A stretch of 64,000 nt of DNA from a virus. The stretch lies in IMG/VR virus record IMGVR_UViG_3300025073_000448; one strand, 5' to 3'. Each line of letters opens with the position of its first letter. The stretch's first letter is position 1. Under the pieces are notes generated by a model. The model made no database searches. It had not been told where the DNA came from and saw only the letters and a program-made list of their open reading frames with translations. The translations under genes were made by a program, and so were the position numbers. This document shows positions 3,830 to 64,000 of this stretch, in pieces.

Positions 3830-4879
3830 CTAAAACGGAGACTTCTCACCTGCTCCGCTTCCAGTCCCACCAGCAGCCCCACCCTTCTTGGCTTGGCCCG
3901 CGCCGGAATCCTTGGCGCCCGCGCTGGCCCCACCAGCAGGCTTCATGAACTCAGGCTCGCCGGGCCTGCTTTCTGCGCCGCCTACATCCCCGCCCGCTCC
4001 GCCATATCCTCCACCCGAGCCTCCTTCCCCGCCACTCCCACCCCCGGCCGCAGCAGCTTCCGCCGCCTCTTCCGCCTCAAACGTTGTCTGAACGCTGGCA
4101 TCCTTTAGGGACTCGACCGTCGGGATAATGATCTCGTTCAGCAGCACCTCGTCAACCGGCTTCGGCATGGTGAACTTTGCGCGGTAATGCTTCTGAGGCT
4201 CGAGTCGCTTCTCTAGGGATATCTCGGTCTGAAACATGAAGAAGGGCTTGCGGCGGAGCATGACGCTCGAGATGAAACCCTTGGTGGGTTTGATGCTTAC
4301 GCCGTGGAGCGTCGTCCAGAAGGGGACCCCATCATCGATTCCAATGCAGAGAAGATTATAAAGAGTTCCGCAGGGAGGCTTGGTCTTTCCGTCCTCGTCC
4401 CATGCTCCGAACTGGCATACTTGCTTGGGGCGATTCCCTGGCCCCATGACTGCACAAACCTTGGAAGGAGGGAATGGGTGGCGTGAATCAGGCTCCCAGA
4501 ACGTATATGATCGGCAAAGCAAGTCCTCTCCGTCTCCGGATGCCAGCCATTCGGAGTTTTTTCCCGTCTCTGCGATGAGATCTTGCATGTATGCATTTAC
4601 TTCCGTGGAGTTCTTGGTTCGATCCTGCTGACTCCATAGAGCTCGGCCTTTGTCGGCCTTCACGATCACTACATTCAGCGTTTCCACCTCTTCCCCGGTA
4701 AGATTGCAGAGAAAGTGACCCTCGGTTCCGGTTTTACTCGTCGGCTGCACCACCTTATAGCGCGGGATCACGAGATCGGACGCATCAAACGATTCCCACC
4801 CCGTATAGCCTTGAAGGCTTTCAGGGATTACTACAGCGCCTGCGGGGGAGTGGATAGCAAGATCCTTCGATTCACTCAT
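3830..4879 (-). CDS. Putative ssDNA-binding/annealing protein
   Basis: DLVIPRYKVVQ-type N-terminus, long Gly/Ala-rich tail ending ...SPF like an SSB tip, located in the recombination block. Confidence 0.5.
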   Translation of the reverse strand: MSESKDLAIHSPAGAVVIPESLQGYTGWESFDASDLVIPRYKVVQPTSKTGTEGHFLCNLTGEEVETLNVVIVKADKGRALWSQQDRTKNSTEVNAYMQDLIAETGKNSEWLASGDGEDLLCRSYTFWEPDSRHPFPPSKVCAVMGPGNRPKQVCQFGAWDEDGKTKPPCGTLYNLLCIGIDDGVPFWTTLHGVSIKPTKGFISSVMLRRKPFFMFQTEISLEKRLEPQKHYRAKFTMPKPVDEVLLNEIIIPTVESLKDASVQTTFEAEEAAEAAAAGGGSGGEGGSGGGYGGAGGDVGGAESRPGEPEFMKPAGGASAGAKDSGAGQAKKGGAAGGTGSGAGEKSPF

Positions 4880-4883
4880 GACA

Positions 4884-5384
4884 TTATTCCTTTTCTATTG
4901 GAAAGTTGAGACATGCAAATTCACCAAAGAACTCAACTGCTTTTGCGTCGTATGCTTTGGCGGCTTCAATTTCTTGGTGAGGCTGAAATGACCCAAGGTG
5001 ATATCTTTTTTTGTTAGTTTTTATTTGAGCATACCATCTGTTGTGATTTTTATCCCATGTAACTCCTTTGTATTGTGATATCCCGGTAGTTGTTCTAACG
5101 TTCTGCTGATTACATTGATGCGTTGCCTTCCTAAGATTGAATCTCTGATTGTTCAAGCCATTCCCGTCCCAATGATCCACCTCAATGTCTTCATTCGTCA
5201 ACAATAGTAATTCTCTGTGCATATATATTTTTGGATATCTGACCCCCTTAACAACCGGGGCATTTCGGACAGCATACCACTTATTCTTTGCCGGGTTTGC
5301 ATACCACCGCCACTGCATCAACCACTCCCAATCCTCATCATCAACCAGCGCCACCTTGCCCTGAGTCAAAGGTATTTCCTTCAT
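4884..5384 (-). CDS. HNH endonuclease with C-terminal AP2 domain
   Basis: MKEIPLTQGKVALVDDED, EVDHWDGNGLNNQRFNLR, YKGVTWDK...WYAQI...AAKAYD...FGEFACLNF. Confidence 0.92.
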   Translation of the reverse strand: MKEIPLTQGKVALVDDEDWEWLMQWRWYANPAKNKWYAVRNAPVVKGVRYPKIYMHRELLLLTNEDIEVDHWDGNGLNNQRFNLRKATHQCNQQNVRTTTGISQYKGVTWDKNHNRWYAQIKTNKKRYHLGSFQPHQEIEAAKAYDAKAVEFFGEFACLNFPIEKE

Positions 5385-5388
5385 GACA

Positions 5389-5523
5389 TCATCCCCCAAA
5401 AAAGAAATCGCGCGGATCATGGGTCACCGACTGTCGCTCATCAAGCAAGGAAAATGAGCGAGGCCCAGGAGTCTTTCTCTCCAGTCCACGATACGCGCGA
5501 TAGGGTATTCTATTCTTCTTCAT
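5389..5523 (-). CDS. Putative 44-aa leader uORF upstream of the HNH-AP2 gene
   Basis: AAGCAAGGAA RBS then ATG; MKKNRIPYRAYRGLERKTPGPRSFSLLDERQSVTHDPRDFFFGG*; stop lies 4 nt before the HNH ATG. Confidence 0.5.
   Translation of the reverse strand: MKKNRIPYRAYRGLERKTPGPRSFSLLDERQSVTHDPRDFFFGG
5407..5501 (-). ncRNA. Three-way-junction RNA element 2
   Basis: 16-bp outer stem (1 mismatch, 1 GU), GGAG-AGAAAGA-CUCC hairpin, CGCUCAU/AUGAGCG hairpin with a pyrimidine-rich loop, then a U-tract. Confidence 0.65.
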
Positions 5524-7119: not shown

Positions 7120-8943
7120 CTACTCTCCTTTCTCGGGCTCGGCAGTCTTCCGGCTCAGCCTCGGAGGAAGTTCTGAGCCTTGAAGGGAAGGGGGTGTTTT
7201 CTTGTCCGTTGAATCCAGAAAAGCAGGAGACGACAAGTCATTGTCGGATGAAGTCTTCAGCGTTGCGGCAACCATTTCTTCGCTGAAAGGATCGCCCGCT
7301 CCCTCTTCCCATCCGCCTTCTTCCTCGTCATTCTTTCCATTCCCAGCTTCACCTTCCCCGCCCTTCTTCCTCTTCCCCCTCTTCTTACGCTTATCTTCCA
7401 GAGCTTCCGGCTTTTCCGGCCTTCCCTCGACAGGCACGCCGTTCACCGCGACAACCTCCCCCTCCACGAGATGCCACCCATTCTCTTCCGGCTGCTCCGC
7501 GACCTTCGTCACAATGATATGCGCCCCGATCTTCGCGGCCCACTCCCGGAGCACTCGCTGGCTATCCAGGTCGAGCTCGGCCCACGCCTTGTCGATGGTC
7601 AGCAATCCGATGTCCGGGTGGGACGCCATGCATACAGCGCAACCCACGTGGATCTGCTCGGCTCCGGATGCTAAACTCAAAGGATGACCATTGTACGTGA
7701 CGACACCCTCGTCAAAGCCCAGCCCGAGAACCGGCATGCCGGCGGCCTCGATCAGCTCACCCTTGTAGTTTTTGAGTGCTGCCATGCGGTCAGTGTAGGA
7801 TTGCGAAACGGCGCGCTGTGTTTCGAGGGAGGTCGTCGACGCTTTCCATGAAGTAATGGCGTTGAAGGTCTTGTTAGTGGCGTCTGCGGTGGAGATGCGG
7901 GTGTCGACGTCTTGGAAGAGGGGGGCGAGGTCTTCCAGCGACAACAGCGCCTCCGTTTTCTCCACACGCTCTGCCCGCATTTCCGCAATGGCGACGAAAT
8001 GATTGTTTTGTTCCTCATAGAGCTTGACCAGCGCAAGCTTGAGGTTTTCGATCTGAGACAGAATATCCTGTATCTTTAGAGACTGTTCCGCGAATTCTGC
8101 TTCTTGGGATTGTATGCTTGTTGAGAGGGAATCGACCGCCTTACGCTGCTCATCCTGTTCTTTCTGCCGTTCTTCCAGCGCTTTCCGCTCTTCAAACAAA
8201 TCCTTGACCTTGACCTCCTCGACACTCTCCCACCCTTCAGGCGGCATAAAGCTGGCCTTCACCCCTTCGAGGCGCTTCACTTCGGCGTTCACTTCTTTAC
8301 GCAGCTCGAAGAGCTTCTTGTGCGCCCGGTCGAAGGCCCCCACGGAATCACGCAGGTGCTCGGCCTTGACGCCGGTAAAGCCGGATCGCTTCATGAATTC
8401 ATCGGGATCTGGGCGGAAGGTGATGAGGCGCTGGAGGGTCTCTATCTTCTCTGACTCATTCAGGCGATTGAAGGCGGTGGGGTCCTGGACGTTCTCTCCA
8501 AGCCTTGAAGAGAGGAACTCCTGCGGTGACGGAGCGATGAAGCCACCCTTGCCGATGATGCTGAGCGTGGTGGTATACCCTCCGGATGGAGATCCGTCTT
8601 TCCCTTCCTTGCGATTGATCACGCGCTTCACCAGATAATCCCCGAAGTCGATCAACCCCTCGGCCCGGTCGGTTCCGTCCCGGATGATGTCCGCGGAGAT
8701 GTGCTTTTCTCCGAGCAGCATTCCCCAGAGGCATTCAAGGAGGGAGCTTTTGCCCTGGCGGTTTTTGCCCGTGAGCAAGACTATGGGGTCGGCAGGATCG
8801 GGGCGAATGTCCACGACCTTGAGCTTCTTGAAGTTCTCGGCGTAGATCTGGACTACGCGGAGAGGGGTGGGGATGGGTGCGGTGGTGGTGGTTGAAGCAG
8901 GATTGTCTTTCATTTCTTCATTGTCTTGTGTCTTATTTGGCAT
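7120..8943 (-). CDS. SMC/SbcC(Rad50)-like ABC ATPase
   Basis: IYAENFKKL, Walker A TGKNRQGKSS, long coiled coil, signature LASGAEQ, Walker B LLTID; start MPNK at 8943. Confidence 0.88.
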   Translation of the reverse strand: MPNKTQDNEEMKDNPASTTTTAPIPTPLRVVQIYAENFKKLKVVDIRPDPADPIVLLTGKNRQGKSSLLECLWGMLLGEKHISADIIRDGTDRAEGLIDFGDYLVKRVINRKEGKDGSPSGGYTTTLSIIGKGGFIAPSPQEFLSSRLGENVQDPTAFNRLNESEKIETLQRLITFRPDPDEFMKRSGFTGVKAEHLRDSVGAFDRAHKKLFELRKEVNAEVKRLEGVKASFMPPEGWESVEEVKVKDLFEERKALEERQKEQDEQRKAVDSLSTSIQSQEAEFAEQSLKIQDILSQIENLKLALVKLYEEQNNHFVAIAEMRAERVEKTEALLSLEDLAPLFQDVDTRISTADATNKTFNAITSWKASTTSLETQRAVSQSYTDRMAALKNYKGELIEAAGMPVLGLGFDEGVVTYNGHPLSLASGAEQIHVGCAVCMASHPDIGLLTIDKAWAELDLDSQRVLREWAAKIGAHIIVTKVAEQPEENGWHLVEGEVVAVNGVPVEGRPEKPEALEDKRKKRGKRKKGGEGEAGNGKNDEEEGGWEEGAGDPFSEEMVAATLKTSSDNDLSSPAFLDSTDKKTPPSLQGSELPPRLSRKTAEPEKGE

Positions 8944-10811: not shown

Positions 10812-10930
10812 GATTTTGTCCTTTCTCTCAAAAGTTTTCTCATCAAAACACGCCCCCAAGAGGAATGCAAGCGAAAAATGAACATGATCAACATTATTTT
10901 CCGTGACTCCTCCAAACCCACAAAAAAAGA

Positions 10931-16328: not shown

Positions 16329-16407
16329 AATCTTGGAAGGGAAGAACCTTGAAGGGATCGAGCGACCCCCCCCTTTTTTTTCAAGGCCAGGGAGGAGAGA
16401 AGGCGGA

Positions 16408-16674: not shown

Positions 16675-17144
16675 GCGGCATGAGCGGCATGATGGCGAGC
16701 ATCGAAAACTACTACCAAGGCGACAAATACAAGTGGCTCGAAGGCCTTGGCGAAATCATCACTGGAGACATGAATCGGGAGACCATAGCATTTCGCACCG
16801 CCATGATGCCTGGATTATCTATCACCCTTGAAGGGGCGGGCTTGTGGTCCCTGACGCACGACGAAAGCGGGATGAAGCTGCACGGTGAGTATGAGCGACT
16901 TGCCGATGCCGTGACGGTGGCCGATGAGCTTGCATCGCGGATCGACTGGAGAGGGATCGTCATAAAGGACGTACCGAATCAAAAGATCCCCCATGAGATG
17001 TTTGATTTGTTGTTCGAAATCGAATGCACGGCCATGGACATTCAGGACCGGATTGATGCGGCAATGGACGGGAGTGGTGGTGGGGAGTTGGAGGAATACC
17101 TCGAAGGAAAGAGCATTCAAGGTAGGGAGGGGTTAGAGCCGTGA
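16671..17144 (+). CDS. Hypothetical protein
   Basis: ATGA-coupled, RBS module. Confidence 0.7.
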   Translation: MSGMSGMMASIENYYQGDKYKWLEGLGEIITGDMNRETIAFRTAMMPGLSITLEGAGLWSLTHDESGMKLHGEYERLADAVTVADELASRIDWRGIVIKDVPNQKIPHEMFDLLFEIECTAMDIQDRIDAAMDGSGGGELEEYLEGKSIQGREGLEP

Positions 17145-17416: not shown

Positions 17417-18702
17417 TAACCTCGACGTCAGCATCAGCATCGCTACCAGCGGCATCACCTACACCAACATCCATTCCACTCGAAAACCCCTGCAAGCTCT
17501 GCCATGAGCGCGAGGCAACCCCGGGACTCAGGACCTGCCCGACGTGTCGCGGGGAAGAGGAGGGGGCGATGTTTGATGACGTGGTGTTCGATGCAAGGAT
17601 GCGTGAAGGGAGCGCGCGCGAAGGTGGAGTGCGCGGAACAATGCCGATGCCACCAAAGAATGAGGCCCCAAAGAGAGAGAAGGCTCACAAGGCAAAAACT
17701 CCATCCCCTTCAAGGCCAATATCTTCCCTTTCAAAGCCAACATCATCGCAGGCCCTTCCAATTCAATCCGAACCACCCATCGCCACCCACTCTGCCACAT
17801 CCACCGCCCCGCCCCGCCCCTTAACCGGAATCTCCCTCGACGCCCAAGAAAAGTGGGAGCAGGCCCGCGCTGGATCCGGAACCAGCACTCGCAAGCCTCC
17901 GCCAAACAAAAAGCCCCGAGAGAAAGTGTATTGCGCCTGCGGGTGTGGCAAGGCCTTCGCCAGGGTGATCGGTGGGTACTGGGAGAGCAGGAAATATTAC
18001 AACGCGGAATGCAAGCGCAGACATTTCAAGCCTAATTTCGGCTGGCCAGGGGATGGCAGTGGCGGCGGCGGCGGCGAAAAAAATGGAGGCAAACCGGAAA
18101 AGTACACAATCACCCCCGAAGGGGACGAGCTCATAAAGCAGCTCTATGCCGAGAAGGTGGGGATGGACCGCAAAAGCCACGTCAAGGCCCTGGCCGAGCA
18201 GCTCGGTGTTCCTCCTTGGAAGGTTTCCCGCCGGGCGTCGGCGCTCGGGGTCCTGTTTTCACCAAGGGCGGAAGCTCCATGGAGCGATGAGGAGCTCGCC
18301 TGTCTCAAGGAAAATGCCCACTGGTCCCCCGTGGTCATTGCCAGAAACATGCGGAAGGCTGGATTCCAGCGGAGCGCCACGGCTGTTAAGGTGAAAATGA
18401 CGAGGCTTGGCGGGAAGGAAGTGGTGCTGAATGGGGAGAGCTTCACTTCTCGGGGACTGGGTAGGCTGTTCGGGGTGGACAGTCAAGCTGTTGTGCGGTG
18501 GATCGATCGGGGGTTGCTCATTGCCGAGCGGATGGGGACCGCGAGGACCGAGGCGCAGCATGGGGATATTTGGAGGATCAAGCGGGAGGATGTGCGGCGG
18601 TTTGTGCTGGCGCATGTGAACGTGATTGATTTCCGAAAAATTACTGATCGTTGGTGGTTCGTTGAGCTTGTGGCTGGGGTTGGGAGAGATGGGAATAAAT
18701 AG
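17413..18702 (+). CDS. Putative DNA-binding protein (zinc ribbons, Myb/SANT-like repeat, HTH)
   Basis: CKLC..CPTC, CACGCG, PWSDEELACL, LGRLFGVDSQAVVRWI; start MITSTS at 17413. Confidence 0.65.
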   Translation: MITSTSASASLPAASPTPTSIPLENPCKLCHEREATPGLRTCPTCRGEEEGAMFDDVVFDARMREGSAREGGVRGTMPMPPKNEAPKREKAHKAKTPSPSRPISSLSKPTSSQALPIQSEPPIATHSATSTAPPRPLTGISLDAQEKWEQARAGSGTSTRKPPPNKKPREKVYCACGCGKAFARVIGGYWESRKYYNAECKRRHFKPNFGWPGDGSGGGGGEKNGGKPEKYTITPEGDELIKQLYAEKVGMDRKSHVKALAEQLGVPPWKVSRRASALGVLFSPRAEAPWSDEELACLKENAHWSPVVIARNMRKAGFQRSATAVKVKMTRLGGKEVVLNGESFTSRGLGRLFGVDSQAVVRWIDRGLLIAERMGTARTEAQHGDIWRIKREDVRRFVLAHVNVIDFRKITDRWWFVELVAGVGRDGNK

Positions 18703-21975: not shown

Positions 21976-22497
21976 ATGGCGCGCAGACCATCATCACAAG
22001 GAAAGCCAATCACTACCCTTCGAGGGGAAGTATCGGCATCAAAACCACCCGCGAAACCCGCACCGCAATCCTCCACACCCTCATCATCTTTCCCATCCTC
22101 CCCGCCATCCTCAATAGAAAAAACAGTATCCCGCCTCCTGAAATTCACCGCCTCGGCCTGCCATTCGGAGATCACGGACGCACTTCGTCACGAGATCCCG
22201 CGGCCAAACATCGCATCGCTCCCGCCCGTACCGGACCACACGCACCGCACACTCCGCTCCATCGGACGCAGGCTTTCCCCCTCGAGGCCGTTTTGTCCCG
22301 ATACCGTGAAAAAGCTCGTGGCCCAGGCCGGGTTGCCGGCGAAGCAGCTCCCGGGAAAAGGGTGGTGGGCGGTGAGGGATGATGACATTGAGGCTTGGAT
22401 TGAGGAGTATATGGCGCGTGAGGAGGGAGGTGGCGGAGTGGCGATGGAAGGCGAGAGACGTGACGGAGAAATGGAAAATAAAAAGAAAAAGCCTTGA
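21976..22497 (+). CDS. Excisionase/MerR-like HTH protein
   Basis: CPDTVKKLVAQAGLPAKQLPGKGWWAVRDDDIEAWI. Confidence 0.6.
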   Translation: MARRPSSQGKPITTLRGEVSASKPPAKPAPQSSTPSSSFPSSPPSSIEKTVSRLLKFTASACHSEITDALRHEIPRPNIASLPPVPDHTHRTLRSIGRRLSPSRPFCPDTVKKLVAQAGLPAKQLPGKGWWAVRDDDIEAWIEEYMAREEGGGGVAMEGERRDGEMENKKKKP

Positions 22498-22543
22498 AGG
22501 AGAGGAGGTGCAACGCCATGCCCTTCCCCTTCAAGGCTTTTTT
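22486..22543. terminator. Bidirectional terminator-like hairpin between convergent blocks (47-bp REP-like element)
   Basis: AAAAAGCCTTGAAGG...CCTTCAAGGCTTTTT, 15-bp arms with A and T tracts. Confidence 0.8.
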
Positions 22544-23087: not shown

Positions 23088-23405
23088 TCAGTCAACAATC
23101 TCATTCTCCAAAAACTTCTTCATCTTTTCTTCCCAGTATCGATCTTCCCGCCTCTTCCTCAGCACCTTCCTTCCCTCTTCTCCGTACCCTCCATTCTTCG
23201 CAACAATCTCTTCTCGCTTCCCTCGCATTTCGATCAGTCGCTCCCGCAAGCTGCTCACCACCACGAATCGCTTTCCTCCCTCGAGGGAGGACCGGACCTT
23301 CTCTTCGGTCATCATCATCCGGATCCACCGGTCGGTCATTCCGGTTGCGCGGGCGGCGGAGGCCGGTGAGAGGATTTGTTCGCCTTTTTGGTTGTAGAGT
23401 GGCAT
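23088..23405 (-). CDS. HTH DNA-binding protein
   Basis: LSPASAARATGMTDRWIRMM...GGKRFVVVSSL. Confidence 0.7.
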   Translation of the reverse strand: MPLYNQKGEQILSPASAARATGMTDRWIRMMMTEEKVRSSLEGGKRFVVVSSLRERLIEMRGKREEIVAKNGGYGEEGRKVLRKRREDRYWEEKMKKFLENEIVD

Positions 23406-25167: not shown

Positions 25168-25382
25168 GCCTTTTCTTCGCTTCTGCACCGATTCCGCACT
25201 ACCCCGCCCTGATATACCCGCCTATCCCGACACAAATTCATTCCTTCAAGGTTTTTCTGGCCGTTTTGACCGCGCATCTGTATGATAATGCTCCAAGAAC
25301 AGTATTCTGCCGGGGAACGGATCGAGAACGGTGAGAAATACAGACACAGCAAGCCTTGAAGGGGAGGAGGGCTTAGAGAAAA

Positions 25383-40534: not shown

Positions 40535-40891
40535 CATATCTTCACTTCCATCCACGGGAGCCGTGGCAACACGTCGGTGGCGACTATCGGCGCTGTCTAG
40601 GCTCCAAATAATCATCAACCATCACATTACAATCAGCACCATCATTCACATCAACCACCACACACCTCAACGCATTGCCTTGAGCGGAACACCGTGGAGG
40701 AAGTGGCTTAGATCCATCCCTTCTCGGCTCCGCCAGGCACAACCAGAGAATACCTCGAAGGGAGGGAGTGGGACAGGCTCGCGGTTCCGGGCTCGCCATG
40801 TTGGTTGTGGATCATCCACGCCACGGTGAACACCCTTAGCGCGCGGCCTTGCTCCCCGCCCCACCCTTCAAGGCTCTCAAAAGGAGAAAGT

Positions 40892-42604: not shown

Positions 42605-42803
42605 GGGAGTGTGAGGCGGCGCAGTGGGTGCTGGGCGGAGAATGCGAGCTGGCAATGTAGCCTTCTCACAAAGATCAGCCAGGCACACGCCGCCTTCCAG
42701 TTCCATCCCCTTCAAGGCCGATTCAACTTTATCCAGAAACCCGAGAGGATGAGCCGCTGACCTTCTACATAATCTTGCAATTTCCCAAGAAGGAGATACT
42801 CTC

Positions 42804-43760: not shown

Positions 43761-43817
43761 AGTATGCCTTGAAGGAGAGGAGACAGCAACCCGCGCCCTT
43801 TCCCTTCAAGGCATACT
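43761..43817 (+). terminator. Hairpin after the capsid gene (second 47-bp REP-like element)
   Basis: AGTATGCCTTGAAGG/CCTTCAAGGCATACT, 15-bp perfect arms, T-rich tail. Confidence 0.7.
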
Positions 43818-53346: not shown

Positions 53347-55785
53347 ATGGCAACTCTCGTGTTCAAGGGATTCTCGGGCGAGGTCCCGCGCCTCTCCCCG
53401 AAAGACCTTGCCAACAATCAGGCGACCTACGCGAAGAACTGCAAGCTTTACTCCGGGAAGATCATGCCGCTCCGGAGCTATGTCGATATCCTGAACCTTG
53501 GCGCCCTTGCTTCTCCCCCGCTCTCCATTTACAAATTCGGCTCCATTCCGTACTGGCTCTACTGGACATCCGACGTGAACGTAGTGAAGAGCCCGTTAGC
53601 CGATGTGGACGACAGAACCTACGTCACCGGGATGGATGTTCCCCGCGTTTTCGATTCCACCATGATCACGGGGCACACCGCGGCATCAACAAGCCTCACA
53701 TCCTACCGGCTTGGAGTTCCGCGCCCGGACAAGGCCCCCATCATCGAGCGGGAGATGCTCTACAAGATAGACAAGAATTCCGTCAAGGGCGGGATTGGCA
53801 TGTCGGCCGTCGGATATCACGCCATATGCCTTGGAGGAGAGCCCGAGAAAATAGAGCGCGTCACCGATGAGCAGCAATCCATCGCCTACGTCTACACCAA
53901 CGTCAACAGTTGGGGCGAGGAAGGGGCGGAATCCCCTCCTTCAAGGATAATCGATCATTGGGCCGGAACGGACAGAAAAGAAAGCCTGAATGCCACCACG
54001 GGGTTATGGGCGGTCGCCGCCGGCGGTACTGATGAGTGGCGGTTTGTCGGGTCTCTCGATCTCATTCCATCATCCGTTTCCGTGAAGGGGGCGGCTTATC
54101 TTCGAAATGGAGTCGCCGGCGAGCTTCGTGTCGGCGAGTGGGCATGGACCGGGACCTCCATCATTATCCGCCTGGCTGAGTCCGACCCGGACCCCAACAA
54201 CCTGGAAGACGACGACATCGAAGCCGGGTGGCAGCGGTATGTTGACGTTTCGGGGTTCGTTGACACCTACGAGAATGATGCCGGGGAATCCGTTGCGCTG
54301 AGCGCCGAGCATCACATAACGAAGCGAAGGATCTACCGGGTAAACACGGGATCATCGGCGGCGGCCTATCAGTTTGTTGATGAAATCGACGTCGCTGACA
54401 CCACATACAGGGACGTGATTTTGTCGGCCGACCTCGGGGAGGTCCTCGCCACGTCCACTTACCTTCCTCCGCCCGAAGACTTGATAGGCATCATCCCCCT
54501 TCCAGGCGGAGGCATGGCCGGATTCAGGCAGGGAGAAAACTCGAACGAGCTGTGTCTGTGCGTTCCGTACAAGTGCTATGCCTGGCCGTCCGGATACCGG
54601 GAGACGGTCAATTCATCCATTATCGCAATCGGGTCATCGGGAAATACCATCGTGATCGGAACCGACAAGGAGACCCTGCTCTACACCGGTCTCGATCCTG
54701 CATCCATGGCTTTTGATGACAACTCCATTCAGAAGCCGTGCCTTTCGAAGCGCGGGATGGTGACAACGGAAAGCGGGGTATTTTTCCCCACGGTCGATGG
54801 GGTTCTGGTGGTGGGGCCCGGGGGAGCAAGGGTTGCAACGAACGATATTTTCAGAGAGCGCGAGTGGCGCATGATGCAGCCCGAGACCATGCTCTCGTTC
54901 TTTTTGAATCAGAACTATGTGGCATACCATGATTATGATTTCGATCTGAATTTCATGGCAGACCAGGAAGCCAGGCGCGCGGATAATGTTGAGATCTATT
55001 TTGGTGAAGGGGAGATCGTCGGCTCGATTGGAAGCCACGGGATAGGGATGCGCGCCATCGGGTCGAGCCTGATAAAATCCGTGTATATTGACATGATACA
55101 GAGCGGGACCGGCGGGCTTGGCAGCGGAGACAGCGGAGACAGCGGGGAAGGTTTCCTTATTGGAGGTGGAATCTCTGAGGGAACGCTCATTCGTCTCGAT
55201 CATTCCCTTGCAGGATACTTGAGCCATGAAGAAGGTCTTCTTTACGTGGTTCAGAAGATCTCGGGGAATTATGTGATCCGGAAGCTCGACGGCCACGAGA
55301 CGCAAAACATGCTCTGCACCTGGACGAGCAAGGTCCATGAATTTCCGGGGCTCGTAAACTTCGGGGCCGCGAAGGTGGTTGCCGACTACGGAGATCCGGT
55401 TCCGGCGGCGAAGCGGGCCGCTTATGATGCGTACCGGGATGCCGTTATCGCCGCGAATGAGGCGCTCATGGATAGCGATGAGGGGGTGGGCGGGTCCATA
55501 GACGCTTTTGATATGAATGATGTGGCCGTGAACGACGATAAACTGAAAGATGTTCCGGTCGAGATGGCCGATGACCCAACGTTGCTTTTCAGGCTGTTTG
55601 TGGCAGATCGCGGTGGGAGTGTGCTCAAGCTCAAGTATCAGAAAATGGTTTCAGCGAACACGCCCTTCCGTCTTCCCGGAAAGTACCGGGGGAGGAAAGG
55701 GAAGATCAGCATTGTAAGCGATATCGATGTCGAGGAGGTGCGGCTTGCCACCAGCATTGAAGAGCTTGTTCATGTTGGAGGGTAG
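53347..55785 (+). CDS. Tail nozzle / tubular protein B-like
   Basis: FKGFSGEVPRL...AKNCKLYSG, YVYTNVNSWGEEG..SPPS, RRIYR, PYAWP-like, CLSKRGMV. Confidence 0.8.
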   Translation: MATLVFKGFSGEVPRLSPKDLANNQATYAKNCKLYSGKIMPLRSYVDILNLGALASPPLSIYKFGSIPYWLYWTSDVNVVKSPLADVDDRTYVTGMDVPRVFDSTMITGHTAASTSLTSYRLGVPRPDKAPIIEREMLYKIDKNSVKGGIGMSAVGYHAICLGGEPEKIERVTDEQQSIAYVYTNVNSWGEEGAESPPSRIIDHWAGTDRKESLNATTGLWAVAAGGTDEWRFVGSLDLIPSSVSVKGAAYLRNGVAGELRVGEWAWTGTSIIIRLAESDPDPNNLEDDDIEAGWQRYVDVSGFVDTYENDAGESVALSAEHHITKRRIYRVNTGSSAAAYQFVDEIDVADTTYRDVILSADLGEVLATSTYLPPPEDLIGIIPLPGGGMAGFRQGENSNELCLCVPYKCYAWPSGYRETVNSSIIAIGSSGNTIVIGTDKETLLYTGLDPASMAFDDNSIQKPCLSKRGMVTTESGVFFPTVDGVLVVGPGGARVATNDIFREREWRMMQPETMLSFFLNQNYVAYHDYDFDLNFMADQEARRADNVEIYFGEGEIVGSIGSHGIGMRAIGSSLIKSVYIDMIQSGTGGLGSGDSGDSGEGFLIGGGISEGTLIRLDHSLAGYLSHEEGLLYVVQKISGNYVIRKLDGHETQNMLCTWTSKVHEFPGLVNFGAAKVVADYGDPVPAAKRAAYDAYRDAVIAANEALMDSDEGVGGSIDAFDMNDVAVNDDKLKDVPVEMADDPTLLFRLFVADRGGSVLKLKYQKMVSANTPFRLPGKYRGRKGKISIVSDIDVEEVRLATSIEELVHVGG

Positions 55786-55825: not shown

Positions 55826-56773
55826 ATGGCAAAAATCACCAAGATAAAATCAATCGGGAACATCCCGCTCAACATAGATCCAGACGTTCGCCGCATCCTC
55901 ACGGCCTTGAAGGAGAGGGCCGAGATCCTGTTTGGAGATCGCGCCTCCGATTCCGGTGAAAAGTACCAGAGCTATGCCGAGTTTGTTGAATCGCTTGAAT
56001 CCGTCAACCAGGCGCTGTCCGGAAAAGCTGAAACCGATCACGGCCACGAAGAAACGTATTACACCAAGGAATCCACGGACAAGAGATTGTCCGAGATGAG
56101 GATCTTGGATTTAGAGGATGTTGGGTTTGAAACCGGGACCGAGAACGCCGGCAAAATCCTCTTTGTAAGCAGGGAAAGCGGGGCCGTTGACGTGATCCCA
56201 GGGGTGATGATTGGCGAGGAAGGAAACGTGGAGCTCTCCGATGGCGCCGTTTCCTTCGAGGACATTTCCGTGTCCGGCCTTTCTCTTTCCGATCCGATAG
56301 CTCCTGCGGTAGGGCCAGGGCTCATTCCGGTGTTCGCGGCTGGGAATTGCATAGGGGTCGGCTTCGACGGGGCCGGCGCGCTCGAGGAGAAGCACGGAGA
56401 AATCCTCCTTCCAGGAAAATACTTGGAAGGGTCGGACGTCGTCCCGTTCGTTTCCTGGATGCCCGCGGTTGCCGGGGCCGGGGATGTTAAATGGCAGCTC
56501 GAGTATTCCTGGCAGAATGACGGAGAGGCTTTCGCGGCTCCGACGACCGTTGATGTCGTTTCAACATCATCAGGAACAGCATGGCAGCCAGAGCGGGCCG
56601 CATTCGCCGCTGTTTCCGGGAGCGGCATGCTGGTCAGGTCCAAGATAGTTTTCAGAGTTTTCAGGGATTCCGTGGATGGTGATGACACCTATGGGAGCGA
56701 TGCCGTGCTTCTTGATGTTGGGTTTACGATTCAGGTTGACGGATTCGGGATGAAGACCGCGGACTCTAAATAA
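55826..56773 (+). CDS. Tail-associated structural protein
   Basis: ILTALKERAEIL N-terminus; beta-sandwich-like C-terminus GDVKWQLEYSW. Confidence 0.7.
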   Translation: MAKITKIKSIGNIPLNIDPDVRRILTALKERAEILFGDRASDSGEKYQSYAEFVESLESVNQALSGKAETDHGHEETYYTKESTDKRLSEMRILDLEDVGFETGTENAGKILFVSRESGAVDVIPGVMIGEEGNVELSDGAVSFEDISVSGLSLSDPIAPAVGPGLIPVFAAGNCIGVGFDGAGALEEKHGEILLPGKYLEGSDVVPFVSWMPAVAGAGDVKWQLEYSWQNDGEAFAAPTTVDVVSTSSGTAWQPERAAFAAVSGSGMLVRSKIVFRVFRDSVDGDDTYGSDAVLLDVGFTIQVDGFGMKTADSK

Positions 56774-57821: not shown

Positions 57822-59102
57822 ATGGACTGGGGTGGAGCACTAAGTGGCGCGGCAACCATAGGAAGCTCGGTTTTCAGCTATCTCAACGGCAAGAAGGCCA
57901 TGGGAATGGCCGAGGATATGTACGGGGCGTCGCAGGAGCTTACCGAAGCTCAGGCCGCCCTGATTATGCAAATGATGGGGCAGTCCGGAGAACAGTGGGA
58001 ATACTGGAAGAAATTCGAGCTTCCCATTCAAAGGCAGCTCTCGAAGGACTACTTGAATACCTACCTCCCCATGCAAAAGCAGGTGGCCAGGGCATACATG
58101 CGCGACCAGCTCCCGCTGGAGCACAAGATCATGGTGCAGGCGCAGGAAGAACCGAAGTATGACACGCTCATGGGCCAGGCCGCTGCCGATGTTGCACAGG
58201 GCTTCGACAACACCCGGGAGCAATCCGAGCGCGCCCTTGGCCGGTATGGCATCAACCCGAATTCCGGGAGGTTTGCCGACGCTCAGAGACAGCAGGATCT
58301 CGCGCAATCAGCCATGACCGCCGGGGCAAGAACGACGGCTCGGGACAAGGCGGATGAGGTGAGTTGGGGGAGGCGCATTCAGGCAGCCGGGATCAAGCGC
58401 GGGCTGGCCTATCCTTCACCAAGCTCGGGATTTGCAAACATGGCTACGACAACCCAGGGTCAGGCACTGGCCGGCGCCGGAAATGCCGCGAGCCAGTACG
58501 CGAGCCTCGGAAATACGGCGGCCGAATACGGAGCGCAGAGCATGTACGGGCTCGGGCAGGGATTGAATCAGCTCACGGGGAGCGGGAGCGGGTCGCTTCA
58601 GGGAATGTGGAATAACATTTCAGGGCTGTTCAAGGAATACGGCGGGCCGGTTCGGGAAGGAGAGCGGTATATTGTCGGTGAAGCCGGGCCGGAAGAGTTC
58701 GTTGCGCCCGCTGACGGGATGATCGTTCCAAATCCTGCGACCATGGAGCAGATGGGGCGGTGGCAGGGCGGGGGCGGGGGCGGCGGCGGAATAATGGATG
58801 GCGGCGGAATGATGGGCGGTGGCGGTATTCCTGGAAGGGGCAGGGGCCTCATGAGTGCCGACGGTGAAGGATATGGCGAAGGCGGTTATGGCGCAGGAAA
58901 CAGGCAAGCCCCTCCCCTTCAAGGCGGATTCCCCAAAAACGTGCCCTGCAGAACGGCTAATCATGAAGATCCTCCCATGGATATGATTCAGGCCGGGGAG
59001 ATTTCGGAATTGCTGAGAAAGCTGGTTGAGCTTTCCGGGGGGAAGTCCTTGATGGGGAGTGGTGCTCCGCTTTCCGGGGAGATTGTTTTGCGGCAGGGGT
59101 AG
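57822..59102 (+). CDS. Putative ejection/DNA-transfer protein
   Basis: AAADVAQGF...LGRYGINPNSGRF; Gly/Ala-rich; GGPV..YIVGEAGPE motif. Confidence 0.7.
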   Translation: MDWGGALSGAATIGSSVFSYLNGKKAMGMAEDMYGASQELTEAQAALIMQMMGQSGEQWEYWKKFELPIQRQLSKDYLNTYLPMQKQVARAYMRDQLPLEHKIMVQAQEEPKYDTLMGQAAADVAQGFDNTREQSERALGRYGINPNSGRFADAQRQQDLAQSAMTAGARTTARDKADEVSWGRRIQAAGIKRGLAYPSPSSGFANMATTTQGQALAGAGNAASQYASLGNTAAEYGAQSMYGLGQGLNQLTGSGSGSLQGMWNNISGLFKEYGGPVREGERYIVGEAGPEEFVAPADGMIVPNPATMEQMGRWQGGGGGGGGIMDGGGMMGGGGIPGRGRGLMSADGEGYGEGGYGAGNRQAPPLQGGFPKNVPCRTANHEDPPMDMIQAGEISELLRKLVELSGGKSLMGSGAPLSGEIVLRQG

Positions 59103-61460: not shown

Positions 61461-61518
61461 CGGCACCCATGAAGCATTCGCATTTGGTTCTCCCTCGAAA
61501 GGAAAGGATCACCCACCC

Positions 61519-64000
61519 ATGGCCTACGATGGACGCATCATCGATGAAATGGCGGCTGAGCTTCTCGGCCCTCCCGCGACCGCCGCAACACAGCCAGCGA
61601 CTACCGCAACGCCCATTGATACCGCATTACCTGAAGCACCGGCAGCACCGGTCAGCCCCACCATCCCCGACGCCGCGCCGATGGTCCAGGAGGATTCAAT
61701 GGGCACGACAGAACAGCCATTCATTCCATCGCAAGCCTCACCAGTCTTCCAGGCTCCGCAAGCCTCACCCACGTCACCCCAGCCCCCCCCCACCTTCAAG
61801 GCATCCCAAATCGACGCCCTGGCCGAGCAGATCTTCGGCCCCGCCCCGGAGCCGCGCACGGCGACAACGCGACGCATGGCATCGGCATCTCGCGGACTGG
61901 CTGGCGGTCTTTCCGATGGCGGCATGGGCATTGGACCGCAAGGTGGGGTAGTCCGCGGCTACGACATATCAAGATACGCGACCGATCCACGCCACGAGCA
62001 GAGCGTAGCCAGATATGCAAACGAGCTTTCCAGTCTCAATTCCATCGAAGCCATAGACGCCCATATTCAATCCGTGGCCCCTGGAAGCCCCGTAACCGGT
62101 TCAATGGTGGCTTCCTCTGCCAGCAGGTACAACGTTGATCCCTTTGTCGTTCTGGCGCTCATGAGGCAGGATAGTTCATACGGAACGCTCGGAAAGGGAG
62201 CCAGGACATTCAATCCCGGAAATGTTGGAAATGACGATGCCGGGAACATGAAGAACTTCGGCGACTGGCAGCGGGGCGTTGACGCCGTGGCCGGATGGCT
62301 CTCTCGACACAAAGCCGGTTCTAGCGGCGGTCTCCTCGGCCTCCAACCCTTCACGGCCAACGCCCCGCCGGCATCCCTGGAAACGCGCCGCCGCGCCCTC
62401 GGCTTGATCGGGATGCAGACTCCGGAGGACATTGCCGCGCAGAAGCGAAGAGAAGCTTGGGAAAGCTCCGTTGACGACATGGCTACCGAGATCCTCGGAC
62501 CTCCCGGGGTTGGTATGGCGGAAAAAGACAAGGAATCCACCGAAGCAAAACTCGCAGGAATGGGGGTTATAGGAAAAGCCCTCGCCACGGGCGGTATAGC
62601 CGGGGTCGCTTCCCTTCTGAGATCATACCGCCATGAAGGGCCGAGAGCCGAAGCTGAATCCATCGACAAGGCCATCAAATACTTCGAGCGTCCGGCAAAT
62701 GAATTTGCAAAAGCGCACGAAGACGACAAGCGCACCATCTTCGGGATCAAGCTCAAGGACATAGCCGATCTTGCTCCTGGTTTGGGTGCTACCGCCGGGA
62801 CTCTGGCCGTTGCAGTCCCCGTTGCCGTAGCAACGACCGCAGCCACGGCACCCTTTCTTGGTCCTGCATCCCCGTGGGTGGGCCGCTCGGCCGGTATGGC
62901 GGCGGCGGCCGCAACACTCCCTATCGCAAAGCGTGCCGACGAGGACCAACTGTTCGAGAGCATAAAGGACGTGCTTGACAACGAATCCATGAAGCAGCGC
63001 GGAAGCAAGCTCACTCAGGACGAGCTCGACGCCGTAAGGGAGAAATACAAGGAGAAGATCAGTCAGCATGGATGGTGGGAAGGCCTGACCGAATCGGCCG
63101 ATACCGCATTGGATTTTGCGATCAGCCTCACCCCGGCCAAGAAGTTCATGGCGCCGGTTGCGAAGTTGTTCCAGTCTCCTTCAGTTCAAGCTCTCCTAAA
63201 AAACCGCATCGTTGGAATGGCCGGAAAGCTCACGGCAATGATGGGGTCGGAAATGGCGCAGGAGGCTGTAACTGCTGCCGGTGTTCCTGGAATGCGCGAT
63301 ACCCTTGGCGGCGGGCAGGCGGACATAGAGCACGCCGTTGGATTGAGGAAGCCATACCAAGGATGGGTGGAGGAAGCCATCCCCGCAGCAAAACAGGCCG
63401 CGCTCCAGACAGCCATCACATTCCCTCTCTTTCAGGCTGGCGGGCATCTTGCCCGGAAGTACCGGGATCGAGGGAAAGGCGGGGAGAGTGATGCCGGAAG
63501 AGAAGATAGTACCGAACACCCCTCGACCCCTCCTTCCGAACAAGAATCTATCACAGAATCATCTCCGCCGCAAGCCCCACAACCCCCTCCTTCGCGGACC
63601 TACCTCCAAGGCATCGACAAGCAGCCGCTCCCCACGACGAGATTGGACCTGGAAGCCGAGTATCAATACCTTGAAGGGATAGCCAAGTCCCCGCCGCAAA
63701 ACCTCGACGTCGAGGCATTTAGGAGGCGAAGAAGCCAGATCGTCAACGCGCTCAACGCAGAGAATTTGTATGATCAACGTCTTGCTCCTAGAGTCCAAAT
63801 GCCGACGAAAGCACAGCTGGAGCAGGCTTGGCTCGGGACACAGGATTCTTTGTTTGCCGAGACAGAAACTCCATCGCAAGCAAAGCCAGAGACTCAACAA
63901 CCAGAAGCCACACAATCAACAAATCCCAAGGAGGCATGGCGCGGAATAGTTCCGAATCTCTTGAAAATGTCCAAGGATGAAATGGTCCGGTATGCACAGG
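61519..64000 (+). CDS. Large internal virion protein with lysozyme-like domain (runs off the window end)
   Basis: Manual translation open to the end; SASRYNVDPFVVLALMRQDSSYG...FNPGNVG. Confidence 0.75.
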   Translation, partial: MAYDGRIIDEMAAELLGPPATAATQPATTATPIDTALPEAPAAPVSPTIPDAAPMVQEDSMGTTEQPFIPSQASPVFQAPQASPTSPQPPPTFKASQIDALAEQIFGPAPEPRTATTRRMASASRGLAGGLSDGGMGIGPQGGVVRGYDISRYATDPRHEQSVARYANELSSLNSIEAIDAHIQSVAPGSPVTGSMVASSASRYNVDPFVVLALMRQDSSYGTLGKGARTFNPGNVGNDDAGNMKNFGDWQRGVDAVAGWLSRHKAGSSGGLLGLQPFTANAPPASLETRRRALGLIGMQTPEDIAAQKRREAWESSVDDMATEILGPPGVGMAEKDKESTEAKLAGMGVIGKALATGGIAGVASLLRSYRHEGPRAEAESIDKAIKYFERPANEFAKAHEDDKRTIFGIKLKDIADLAPGLGATAGTLAVAVPVAVATTAATAPFLGPASPWVGRSAGMAAAAATLPIAKRADEDQLFESIKDVLDNESMKQRGSKLTQDELDAVREKYKEKISQHGWWEGLTESADTALDFAISLTPAKKFMAPVAKLFQSPSVQALLKNRIVGMAGKLTAMMGSEMAQEAVTAAGVPGMRDTLGGGQADIEHAVGLRKPYQGWVEEAIPAAKQAALQTAITFPLFQAGGHLARKYRDRGKGGESDAGREDSTEHPSTPPSEQESITESSPPQAPQPPPSRTYLQGIDKQPLPTTRLDLEAEYQYLEGIAKSPPQNLDVEAFRRRRSQIVNALNAENLYDQRLAPRVQMPTKAQLEQAWLGTQDSLFAETETPSQAKPETQQPEATQSTNPKEAWRGIVPNLLKMSKDEMVRYAQ

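What the first reader, a model, noticed from the sequence alone, without database searches (positions are those of the whole stretch)
4809..63677. Genome-wide palindromic motif CCTT(C/G)AAGG at roughly 50-fold excess
SEEN: exact copies at about 4809, 7178, 16347, 16826, 17707, 22492, 22528, 25243, 25354, 26389, 28521, 31334, 31353, 34361, 34855, 40865, 42709, 43767, 43803, 53938, 55905, 58916, 61793 and 63669. About 0.5 copies are expected under uniform composition. Many near-copies exist (CTTCGAGG, CTTCAAAG). Copies often carry a C-rich flank (CCCCTCCCCTTCAAGGC), lie in gene ends, junctions and low-complexity linkers, force peptides such as PPLQG into unrelated proteins, and occur in both orientations. 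KNOWN: mycobacteriophage L5 stoperators and DNA-uptake sequences are dispersed motifs of this kind. INFERENCE: binding sites for a phage or host protein (repressor, nucleoid, segregation or packaging factor), or footprints of a tiny mobile repeat.
Basis: partly seen in the sequence, partly recalled or inferred. Interest (0 to 1): 0.8.

Follow-up and report, generated by a model that had tools for sequence, protein, structure and literature searches.

The report
Phage-wide directional DNA word CCTTCAAGG
A small group of related aquifer phages carries dozens of copies of one 15-16-letter DNA word, kept by selection on the DNA itself, which is most likely the docking site of an unidentified phage-specific factor.

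Summary
All 24 exact CCTT(C/G)AAGG copies are at the stated coordinates. Expected counts are 0.7 (dinucleotide shuffles), 0.7-5.5 (Markov order 1-5) and about 1 coding copy (protein-preserving codon shuffle, 18 observed).

The word is directional, not a true palindrome: pyrimidine tract, CCTTC, A (also G or C), AGG, C. Counting those variants, the window holds 49 members.

It is a lineage trait. This phage has 31 copies in 77.6 kb, an 89-kb relative 37, and a third relative 9 in 21.6 kb. Phages with 60% and 51% identical terminase have 1 and 0. About 800 sampled Alphaproteobacteria and Desulfobacterota genomes show nothing comparable.

Sites persist at homologous positions (15/22 against 9.9 expected; 5/8 against about 1 at 80% identity). 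They cluster near gene boundaries, and in genes they sit in variable Pro/Gly linkers. Orientation relative to transcription is weak. Only a few inverted pairs form hairpins, one of them terminator-like.

Best reading (about 0.35): dispersed recognition sites for a lineage-specific, probably phage-encoded, DNA-binding factor. No reader was identified. Rivals are a host-driven uptake-like word, an RNA element, or spreading repeats. This scan has noted comparable phage-wide words in other phages.

The parts
4809..4817 (-). motif copy, coding, 62 nt into the 349-aa gene 3830-4879(-); reads SLQG
   Evidence: The relative keeps the amino acids with synonymous non-motif codons.
7178..7186 (-). motif copy, coding, 58 nt before the stop of gene 7120-9063(-); reads PPSLQG
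   Evidence: Exact in the relative.
16347..16355 (-). motif copy in intergenic region 16152-16407, opposite to the flanking + strand genes
   Evidence: gene calls. Unaligned in the relative.
16826..16834 (-). motif copy, coding, antisense in gene 16671-17144(+)
   Evidence: Not conserved in the relative.
17707..17715 (+). motif copy in a low-complexity Pro/Ser linker of gene 17569-18702; a degenerate tandem copy follows at 17728
   Evidence: The relative has both copies exact, 21 nt apart.
22489..22537 (.). hairpin built from inverted copies 22492(-) and 22528(+), flanked by an A-run and a T-run, between convergent genes; the 5' copy contains the TGA stop of gene 21976-22497
   Evidence: folds at -35.8 kcal/mol; pair probability 1.0. 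The hairpin is kept in the relative although one arm has lost a base.
25243..25251 (+). motif copy in the 790-nt divergent intergenic region 24592-25382
   Evidence: Exact in the relative; one mismatch in L063.
25354..25362 (-). motif copy 25 nt upstream of the start of the 459-aa gene 25383-26762; its purine-rich complement GAAGGGGAGGAGGG supplies the ribosome-binding site
   Evidence: Exact in the relative and in L063.
26389..26397 (-). motif copy, coding, antisense in gene 25383-26762
   Evidence: Exact in the relative; one mismatch in L063.
28521..28529 (+). motif copy 26 nt into gene 28495-29091; reads PPPLQG in an N-terminal segment that the motif-free relative L064 lacks
   Evidence: Exact in L063; the relative has the CCTTCCAGG variant.
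31334..31361 (+). two direct copies (31334 and 31353), 19 nt apart, at the 5' end of the portal ORF just after the terminase gene; the relative and L063 each have one copy here
   Evidence: Read as a local tandem duplication.
34361..34369 (+). motif copy in the Gly-rich C-terminal linker of the portal protein; reads QSPPLQG
   Evidence: Kept in the relative and in L063. The motif-free L064 has GGAMGGG at the same place.
34855..34863 (+). motif copy near the 5' end of gene 34761-35312; reads SPFKA just before a hydrophobic segment
   Evidence: Exact in the relative and in L063 with diverged flanks.
40865..40873 (+). intergenic motif copy 18 nt upstream of the ATG at 40892, just before the AAGGAG ribosome-binding site
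   Evidence: Exact in the relative.
42709..42717 (+). intergenic motif copy between the stop at 42604 and the start at 42804
   Evidence: The core is exact in the relative while the flanks differ.
43764..43812 (.). hairpin built from inverted copies 43767(-) and 43803(+) in intergenic region 43740-43876
   Evidence: folds at -35.6 kcal/mol. The hairpin is kept in the relative with one arm mutated.
53938..53946 (+). motif copy, coding, mid-gene in 53275-55785; reads SPPSR
   Evidence: The relative has the CCTTCGAGG variant.
55905..55913 (-). motif copy, coding, antisense, 79 nt into gene 55826-56773
   Evidence: Exact in the relative.
58916..58924 (+). motif copy, coding, 178 nt before the stop of gene 57822-59102; reads QAPPLQG; shares a 20-21-nt identical context with 34361 and 31334
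   Evidence: Exact in the relative.
61793..61801 (+). motif copy in a Pro-rich stretch near the 5' end of the giant ORF that starts at 61519
   Evidence: Exact in the relative.
63669..63677 (-). motif copy, coding, antisense in the giant ORF
   Evidence: Unaligned in the relative.
23088..23405 (-). candidate reader only: 105-aa excisionase-type winged-helix (HTH_17-like) protein confined to this clade
   Evidence: 90-93% identical in all three motif-bearing genomes, against 65-80% for its neighbours. HTH_17-like by atlas features and predicted structure. No homologue outside its own cluster in the protein collection. No evidence links it to the motif.

Best explanation
The window is part of a roughly 90-kb tailed phage with an SU10-like portal, known only from metagenomes. 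Its genome and those of its two nearest known relatives carry about 0.4 exact copies per kb (about 0.8 per kb with one-letter variants) of a directional 15-16-nt DNA word: pyrimidine tract, CCTTC, A (also G or C), AGG, C. I propose that these are recognition sites for a lineage-specific sequence-reading factor, most likely a phage-encoded DNA-binding protein that binds an asymmetric site as a monomer. That would make them a dispersed network of regulatory or architectural sites, in the manner of operators and stoperators. Copies persist where they do least damage to proteins: intergenic DNA, gene ends and Pro/Gly-rich linkers. They cluster at likely control regions. A few inverted pairs have been co-opted as stem-loops, one of which looks like a bidirectional terminator. 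Shown: the enrichment, the asymmetry, nucleotide-level conservation, restriction to the lineage, and the placement. Inferred: that a protein reads the word, that it acts on DNA, and that the phage encodes it.
For: The enrichment survives all nulls. The word is asymmetric in its flank and in its core, as expected for a monomeric reader and not for a symmetric dimer or a typical restriction site. It tracks the phage lineage: 37 sites in the 89-kb relative against 2 for the reversed control, 9 in 21.6 kb of L063, and 1 and 0 in relatives with 60% and 51% identical terminase. Positional conservation is 15/22 against 9.9 expected versus the relative, with core identity 0.93 against 0.82 in flanks, and 5/8 against about 1 expected at 80% DNA identity versus L063. 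Synonymous third positions inside the motif are 0.83 conserved against 0.56 in flanks, p=0.02. Sites are kept while the surrounding linker diverges: 42709 and 34855, the portal C-terminus, and the MucR-like gene. Sites lie near gene boundaries. Clusters occur at large intergenic or control regions: 25243/25354, and four sites within 285 nt around a gene start, conserved in the relative. Orientation is nearly random relative to transcription, and density inside a 4576-aa ORF equals the genome average, which favours reading on double-stranded DNA over RNA. Candidate host groups are not enriched. The phage encodes clade-restricted DNA-binding candidates: a 105-aa HTH_17-like orphan, two further HTH_17-like proteins, and a Ros/MucR zinc-finger protein whose DNA-binding domain is nearly identical in both phages.
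Against: No reader was identified and no binding was tested. Pfam and PHROGs find no repressor, integrase, ParB/KorB-like protein or sigma factor. Co-occurrence tests were uninformative: the HTH orphan exists only in this clade, and a phage whose MucR-like domain is 55% identical has 1 site in 126 kb. Conservation against the closer relative is only modest, and site turnover is visible. That pattern would also fit a motif selected for density or driven by a copying process. The host is unknown, so a host factor or host-driven process is not excluded. Only three distinct genomes carry the word.
Confidence: 0.35

Rival explanations
1. Host-driven iterated word, like DNA uptake sequences or HIP1. 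The host chromosome carries the same word at high density because of an uptake, repair or recombination bias, and the phage has acquired it by living in that host or benefits from carrying it.
For: The distribution closely resembles uptake sequences. It has a short core with weaker flanks, both orientations with one favoured in reading frames, a bias toward gene termini (compare PMC2346458), placement in variable linkers, inverted pairs that form stem-loops, and turnover with roughly constant density. Restriction to one clade could simply reflect a host switch. Recently acquired DNA lacks the word: the low-GC segment around 35.6-37.6 kb and the HNH gene insertions.
Against: Nothing comparable was found in the genomes searched. 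The two MAGs sharing the CRISPR repeat have 10-19 per Mb. Among 401 sampled Alphaproteobacteria the maximum is 80 per Mb, and that genome's flanks are unlike the phage's. Among 401 sampled Desulfobacterota the 11-mer reaches at most about 7 per Mb, against about 200 per Mb in the phage. A bacterial contig encoding the closest cellular MucR homologue has 0 in 20.9 kb. The capped metagenome scan with the extended word returned scattered singletons and no sample rich in hits. These are samples, and the host is not identified.
Confidence: 0.2
2. RNA-level element. The word acts in transcripts as a protein or ribonuclease recognition site, as a pairing partner of ribosome-binding sites (its pyrimidine tract resembles an anti-Shine-Dalgarno sequence), or as half of a terminator or stabiliser hairpin.
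For: In the window, sense copies outnumber antisense copies 16:8, and 10:5 among copies shared with the relative. Sites near start codons are mostly sense, 19:8. Inverted pairs fold into strong hairpins that are conserved despite arm mutations. One copy supplies a ribosome-binding site. The flank is slightly more paired than in shuffled contexts, 0.53 against 0.47, p=0.012.
Against: Lone copies are no more paired than control positions, p=0.20. Only 5 of 68 flanks are strongly paired. Orientation in the relative is about 20:17, and it is mixed inside one giant ORF. The tolerated variants are not limited to wobble-compatible changes. Rfam finds nothing.
Confidence: 0.15
3. Self-propagating short repeat. 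Copies spread by local duplication, gene conversion or recombination between short homologies, and may serve as junctions for module exchange. They are tolerated rather than selected for a reader.
For: Subfamilies share 18-22 identical bases at unrelated loci: 34361/58916/31334, 25354/28521 and 17707/42709. Two local tandem duplications of 19-21 nt create extra copies. Close pairs are more frequent than chance. GC-rich bacteria have hairpin repeat elements with the same core.
Against: Differences between genomes at sites are mostly point substitutions in place rather than clean insertions. Sites are not enriched at alignment breakpoints between the window and the relative: my hand count gives 4 of 24 within 130 nt, with about 5.5 expected. 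Third-position conservation argues for selection on the sequence. No transposase-like gene was seen, although this was not searched exhaustively.
Confidence: 0.1
4. A word linked to DNA modification or restriction: the site of a methyltransferase, another modifying enzyme or a nicking enzyme, kept or amplified by the associated repair or protection system.
For: HIP-type iterated words have been linked to orphan methyltransferases (PMC4390886, seen). The phage lineage carries variable modification-like genes next to the MucR-like gene: PAPS-reductase family in the window's phage and a weak radical-SAM match in the relative. It also has many HNH nucleases.
Against: No methyltransferase was found in the window or the relative. 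The DUF4942 protein of L063 is not shared. The word is asymmetric and 15-16 nt long, unlike typical type II sites. Phages usually lose restriction sites rather than gain them, which is general knowledge.
Confidence: 0.05

Closest known systems
Stoperators and operators of Cluster A mycobacteriophages (L5 gp71-type immunity repressor)
   Same: More than twenty dispersed copies of a short asymmetric site in one phage genome, in control regions and short intergenic spaces. In that system a monomeric protein reads them (PMC9283540; PMC6550527). Copy number (24-37) and asymmetry match here.
   Different: Stoperator orientation correlates strikingly with the direction of transcription. Here it does not (16:8 and about 20:17). 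Half the copies lie inside genes, including deep inside a giant ORF. No homologue of the Cluster A repressor, no integrase and no sign of lysogeny was found. The word and the phage group are unrelated to Cluster A.
DNA uptake sequences (Neisseriaceae DUS, Pasteurellaceae USS)
   Same: A 9-12-nt core with weaker flanks at about 0.4-1 per kb. Both orientations occur with one favoured in reading frames, and there is a bias toward gene termini (PMC2346458). Copies sit in tolerant protein segments. Inverted pairs form stem-loops after genes (from my own knowledge of that literature).
   Different: Those are properties of bacterial chromosomes tied to competence. Here the word is seen only in a phage lineage, no carrier host was found among about 800 sampled genomes, and the sequence matches no uptake sequence I know of.
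HIP1 and other highly iterated palindromes of cyanobacteria (PMC4390886)
   Same: A very short word at high, fairly even density in coding and non-coding DNA and in all reading frames.
   Different: HIP1 is a true palindrome linked to methyltransferases and is genome-wide in the host. This word is functionally asymmetric, and no methyltransferase was found.
REP/BIME-type extragenic palindromes and intrinsic terminators
   Same: The pairs at 22489-22537 and 43764-43812 (and 5037-5103 in the relative) are intergenic stem-loops. The first has flanking A and T runs like a bidirectional terminator.
   Different: Most copies are single, half are inside genes, and they are not base-paired above background.
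Phage-wide words noted earlier in this scan (e1-5327722, KorB-like operator lattice; e1-3296627, primase-linked word; e1-3263117, frame-locked dyad)
   Same: Dozens of copies of one short word spread through a phage genome and its relatives, absent from host DNA.
   Different: Here there is no ParB/KorB-like protein, no strand switch at the candidate origin (23:19 to the right and 2:4 to the left), no single reading frame, and no true dyad symmetry.

Membership tests
Cluster A mycobacteriophage stoperators | More than twenty dispersed copies of a short asymmetric site in the phage genome | tested here: met
   24 in the window, 31 in 77.6 kb of this phage, 37 in the relative. Asymmetry of flank and core.
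Cluster A mycobacteriophage stoperators | Site orientation strikingly correlated with the direction of transcription (PMC9283540) | tested here: not met
   16 sense to 8 antisense in the window. About 20:17 in the relative, and mixed inside one giant ORF.
Cluster A mycobacteriophage stoperators | Sites lie in promoter regions and short intergenic spaces | tested here: inconclusive
   Intergenic DNA and gene boundaries are enriched (12/24 intergenic, p=0.004; 20/24 within 200 nt of a boundary). About half the copies are inside coding sequence.
Cluster A mycobacteriophage stoperators | Read by an L5 gp71-type immunity repressor in a temperate phage | tested here: not met
   Pfam and PHROGs scans of about 60 proteins found no repressor or integrase family match. 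Only generic HTH_17-like and Ros/MucR proteins were found.
DNA uptake sequences | Hundreds to thousands of copies in the host chromosome | tested here: inconclusive
   Not found in 2 MAGs sharing the CRISPR repeat, 401 Alphaproteobacteria or 401 Desulfobacterota sampled. The host itself is unknown.
DNA uptake sequences | Bias toward gene termini, with one orientation favoured in reading frames (PMC2346458) | tested here: met
DNA uptake sequences | Recognised by a competence receptor during DNA uptake | not testable with these tools
   Needs the host and uptake assays.
Highly iterated palindromes (HIP1 type) | True palindrome | tested here: not met
   Variants 3' of the central C total 55 copies against 9 for their mirror images. 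The flanks are not complementary.
Highly iterated palindromes (HIP1 type) | A partner methyltransferase recognises part of the word | tested here: not met
   No methyltransferase family match in the window or the relative. The DUF4942 protein of L063 is not shared.
REP-type extragenic palindromes / intrinsic terminators | Each unit folds as a stem-loop in non-coding DNA | tested here: not met
   True only for the inverted pairs. Lone copies are not paired above controls (p=0.20), and 5 of 68 flanks are strongly paired.
Polar words (Chi, KOPS) and primase recognition words | Strand preference tied to replication direction, switching at the origin | tested here: not met
   The family splits 23:19 to the right of the candidate origin and 2:4 to the left. 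In the relative, 20 copies are on one strand and 17 on the other, with no positional pattern.

The most novel reading that the evidence does not exclude
This phage lineage has evolved its own 'self' word, a phage counterpart of bacterial uptake or Chi-type sequences. A phage-encoded machine reads it to tell phage DNA from host DNA or to organise it. That machine could be the Ros/MucR-like zinc-finger protein, a winged-helix orphan, the packaging apparatus or a nuclease-protection system.
Probability: 0.12. Interest if true: 0.8.

Novelty: new variant of a known kind. Interest (0 to 1): 0.55.

Why it matters
Dispersed genome-wide words are well understood in only a few phages, mainly the stoperators of Cluster A mycobacteriophages. 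This is a clean, statistically robust case in an uncultured phage lineage. The word is asymmetric, is written into protein linkers in all three frames, is conserved through about 20% DNA divergence, and was not found in sampled candidate host genomes. If a phage protein reads it, the system would be a second, mechanistically different example of genome-wide site networks in phages, because it is indifferent to orientation and tolerated inside genes. It would also be directly testable with four or five small candidate proteins. If instead the host carries the word, it would mark an unrecognised uptake- or repair-linked sequence in an uncultured bacterium and would give a sequence-based way to assign the phage to its host.

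Tried and rejected
(1) General RNA hairpin or terminator reading. Lone copies are not paired above controls. The flank effect is small and driven by a few hairpins.

(2) Sigma-70 promoter or short-loop terminator association. Both scans are at chance level and none coincide with sites.

(3) Rfam. No family in the window.

(4) Host-derived word. The CRISPR-repeat route gave two alphaproteobacterial MAGs that carry the phage's repeat variant only sporadically and are not enriched. Sampling of a class and a phylum was negative. One of the 401 alphaproteobacterial genomes (G044) is unpublished, and the conclusion does not depend on it.

The records behind the interesting loci are not held.

(6) MucR co-occurrence. 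A phage with a 55% identical domain has 1 site in 126 kb. The 69% homologue turned out to be the window's own phage.

(7) Co-occurrence for the 105-aa HTH and the 459-aa protein. No carriers exist outside the clade.

(8) DUF4942 as a shared modification enzyme. It is absent from the window and the relative.

(9) Primase or Chi-like polarity. There is no strand switch.

(10) Recombination-junction reading. My hand count shows no enrichment at alignment breakpoints.

(11) Extra clade contigs (L200-L208) are identical to the window and add no diversity.

(12) Literature search for the word itself returned only primers.

No whole genome is held.

Full report
WHAT THE WINDOW IS

The window is phage DNA. 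It encodes a RecD-like helicase, a primase-helicase, several HNH endonucleases, a large terminase, a portal with an inserted HNH/intein segment, a cell-wall hydrolase and a long structural module. Genes run leftward up to about 11 kb and mostly rightward after that.

A collinear 89,432-bp relative exists in IMG/VR (IMGVR_UViG_3300025009_000068) at 70-99% DNA identity. A third, more divergent relative is L063, with terminase 88% identical and about 80% DNA identity over aligned parts. L209 overlaps the first 7,091 bases of the window at 100% identity and extends the same phage 13.6 kb to the left.

THE OBSERVATION

Expected counts are:
- 0.74 under dinucleotide shuffles;
- 0.7, 1.6, 2.4, 2.3 and 5.5 under Markov orders 1 to 5, with a largest single simulation of 14;
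- about 1 coding copy, against 18 observed, when synonymous codons are shuffled within each gene so that every protein and its codon usage are kept.

ANATOMY

When each site is oriented so that its centre is C, the six bases on the 5' side are 86% pyrimidine with almost no G, and the base on the 3' side is C in 45 of 61 sites from the window and the relative.

The core is also lopsided. CCTTCGAGG and CCTTCCAGG together have 55 copies, whereas their mirror images CCTCCAAGG and CCTGCAAGG have 9. C-to-T changes are tolerated at the first two positions, but the mirrored G-to-A change at the last position is not. All enriched variants share the pyrimidine flank.

The unit is therefore a directional word of about 15-16 nt: pyrimidine tract, CCTTC, A (also G or C, never T), AGG, C. 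With the A, G and C forms the window holds 49 members, 39 of them with at least five of six flank pyrimidines. Subfamilies share 18-22 identical bases at unrelated loci.

DISTRIBUTION AMONG GENOMES

| Genome | Terminase identity to window | Exact sites |
|---|---|---|
| Window's phage (window + L209 extension) | same phage | 31 in 77.6 kb |
| 89-kb relative | 82-83% | 37, against 2 for the reversed-pattern control |
| L063 | 88% | 9 in 21.6 kb |
| L064 | 60% | 1 in 19.2 kb |
| L065 (prophage-like locus, Desulfobacteraceae MAG) | 51% | 0 in 21.6 kb |

The word is a trait of a narrow lineage.

SELECTION

Of 22 window sites that align to the relative, 15 are exact there, against 9.9 expected from the local frequency of conserved 9-mers. 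Per-base identity is about 0.93 in the core and 0.82 in the flanks.

Against L063, 5 of 8 alignable sites are kept where about 1 is expected (counting 34361, which is offset by a 1-nt indel in its flank). Of the other three, 25243 and 26389 are one mismatch away in L063, and 31353 has no motif-like counterpart there.

Third codon positions inside the word are 0.83 conserved, against 0.56 in neighbouring codons versus L063 (p=0.02). The effect is in the same direction but not significant versus the closer relative.

Several sites keep the core while their flanks or the encoded linker diverge: 42709, 31353 and 34855; the portal C-terminus, where the motif-free relative has GGAMGGG in place of QSPPLQG; and the GLEG position of the MucR-like gene. 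Differences between genomes are mostly point changes. Two places show 19-21-nt tandem duplications that add a copy.

PLACEMENT

With my own rough gene calls, 12 of 24 window sites are intergenic against 23.5% expected, and 20 of 24 lie within 200 nt of a gene boundary against 43% expected (p about 7e-5). The relative gives 25 of 37 against 39% expected (p about 3e-4). Independent gene calls attached to an identical contig confirm the map between 13 and 33 kb.

Coding copies use all three frames and encode PPLQG/SLQG, PSR or FKA in Pro/Gly-rich, poorly conserved segments.

Clusters occur in the 790-nt divergent region 24592-25382. Four sites also lie within 285 nt around the start of a gene left of the window, an arrangement conserved in the relative. 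Density inside the relative's 4,576-aa ORF, 0.44 per kb, equals the genome average.

ORIENTATION

Relative to transcription, the window has 16 sense and 8 antisense copies, and the relative about 20 and 17. There is no strand switch at the candidate origin. This argues against a stoperator-like, promoter-like, primase-like or Chi-like mechanism, all of which need polarity. It also weakens RNA-level readings.

STRUCTURE

The inverted pairs at 22489-22537 and 43764-43812, and others in the relative, fold at -31 to -43 kcal/mol. They stay folded in the orthologue even where one arm has mutated. The first is flanked by an A-run and a T-run between convergent genes, like a bidirectional terminator.

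Lone copies are no more paired than random positions, p=0.20. The pyrimidine flank is only slightly more paired than in shuffled contexts, and only 5 of 68 flanks are strongly paired. Hairpins are a minority use of the word.

HOST

No tRNA gene and no whole genome are available. A phage-borne mini-array of two type I-E-like repeats is real. Its exact repeat occurs only as a sporadic variant in arrays of an Acetobacteraceae MAG and a Rhodobacter MAG, and neither genome is enriched.

The lineage encodes a Ros/MucR zinc-finger protein. Its nearest named homologues are in Syntrophobacteraceae and other Thermodesulfobacteriota MAGs, in line with the distant terminase homologues.

Sampling 401 Alphaproteobacteria gave at most 80 sites per Mb, against 375-415 per Mb in the phages, and that genome's flanks are different. 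Sampling 401 Desulfobacterota with the 11-mer CCCTTCAAGGC gave at most about 7 per Mb, against about 200 per Mb in the phage. These are samples, and the host is not identified. One sampled genome (G044) is unpublished, and nothing here rests on it.

CANDIDATE READERS

Family searches find no repressor, integrase, ParB/KorB-like protein, sigma factor or methyltransferase. What the lineage does have:
- a 105-aa excisionase-type winged-helix orphan, 90-93% identical in all three motif-bearing genomes;
- two more weak HTH_17 matches;
- the MucR-like protein, whose zinc-finger domain is almost identical in the two phages.

None could be tied to the word. Co-occurrence tests found no informative carriers outside the clade.

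VERDICT

The most likely mechanism is a set of recognition sites on double-stranded DNA for a lineage-specific, probably phage-encoded, asymmetric reader, with pairs co-opted as stem-loops (confidence about 0.35). A host-driven uptake- or HIP-like word (0.2), an RNA element (0.15), a spreading repeat (0.1) and a modification-linked word (0.05) remain open.

The word works most like stoperators or uptake sequences but fails a defining test of each: orientation for the first, and no carrier host found so far for the second. It is best filed as a new variant of the known kind 'dispersed genome-wide recognition words'. Similar phage-wide words were noted by this scan in other phages.

Noticed in passing
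window 31239-34496, insert at about 32758-33582: The portal gene carries an in-frame insert of about 824 bp with an HNH endonuclease match. The 89-kb relative lacks it. The gene call on an identical contig carries Pfam Intein_splicing. This is an intein with a homing endonuclease inside the portal protein.
   Followed up: partly
window 19504-19593: A phage-borne CRISPR mini-array: two identical 29-nt type I-E-like repeats around one 32-nt spacer, with no cas genes. The spacer has no exact match in IMG/VR. The exact repeat occurs only as a sporadic variant in two alphaproteobacterial MAG arrays.
   Followed up: partly
window 2816-3715(-), 4884-5420(-), 10245-11066(-): Three free-standing HNH endonuclease genes, one with an AP2 DNA-binding domain. 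The first two have no counterpart in the relative, so they look like recently inserted homing endonucleases. None contains the motif.
   Followed up: partly
L175:1560-1700 and 2350-2440; L157:1-150; L067:1-140; L167:1-170; L119:150-330: Unrelated GC-rich (61-65%) bacterial metagenome contigs carry long hairpin repeats of about 90-140 nt. A C-rich arm (CCCCATCCCC...CCCTCC-CCTTCAAGG) pairs with a G-rich arm and shares the phage word's core and flank. They fold at -47 to -79 kcal/mol, have no Rfam match, and sit next to tRNA and SRP RNA genes. This looks like an undescribed REP/MITE-like family. Any relation to the phage word is unknown.
   Followed up: partly
L209:10001-10663 (3.4 kb left of the window start) and L060:8840-9418(-): The phage lineage encodes a Ros/MucR-family zinc-finger regulator (PF05443, E 4e-24). 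The N-terminal and zinc-finger domains are conserved, the linker is variable, and the motif sits at the same GLEG position in both phages. The nearest named homologues are in Syntrophobacteraceae and other Thermodesulfobacteriota MAGs.
   Followed up: partly
L209:11079-11696, and the region around L060:4866-5594(-) in the relative: Next to the MucR-like gene the two phages carry different small enzyme genes: PAPS-reductase family in the window's phage and a weak radical-SAM match in the relative. This may be a variable DNA- or nucleotide-modification module.
   Followed up: no
window 61519-63999 (runs off the end); about 9001-22731 in the relative's own coordinates (loci L056-L057): A giant ORF of 4,576 aa in the relative, with no family match for the part in the window. 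It carries six motif copies in mixed orientation.
   Followed up: no
window about 35563-37639: A segment inside the 1017-aa gene 35293-38346 with no counterpart in the relative. The surrounding 36-40 kb has lower GC (0.48) and no motif family members. It looks like a recently exchanged module, possibly a host-recognition part.
   Followed up: no
L194 and L197 (both ends of the 89,432-bp relative): The first 37 residues of the MucR-like protein are encoded at both ends of the contig. The record's ends therefore overlap, so the genome is circular, circularly permuted or terminally redundant, although IMG/VR classes it as linear.
   Followed up: no
window 14519-15136 and 11191-13785: A 205-aa protein with a weak Pox_D5 match follows the primase-helicase after a 733-nt gene-free stretch (13786-18). 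That stretch has no motif copy and lies at the turn of the cumulative GC skew. It is a candidate replication origin region.
   Followed up: no
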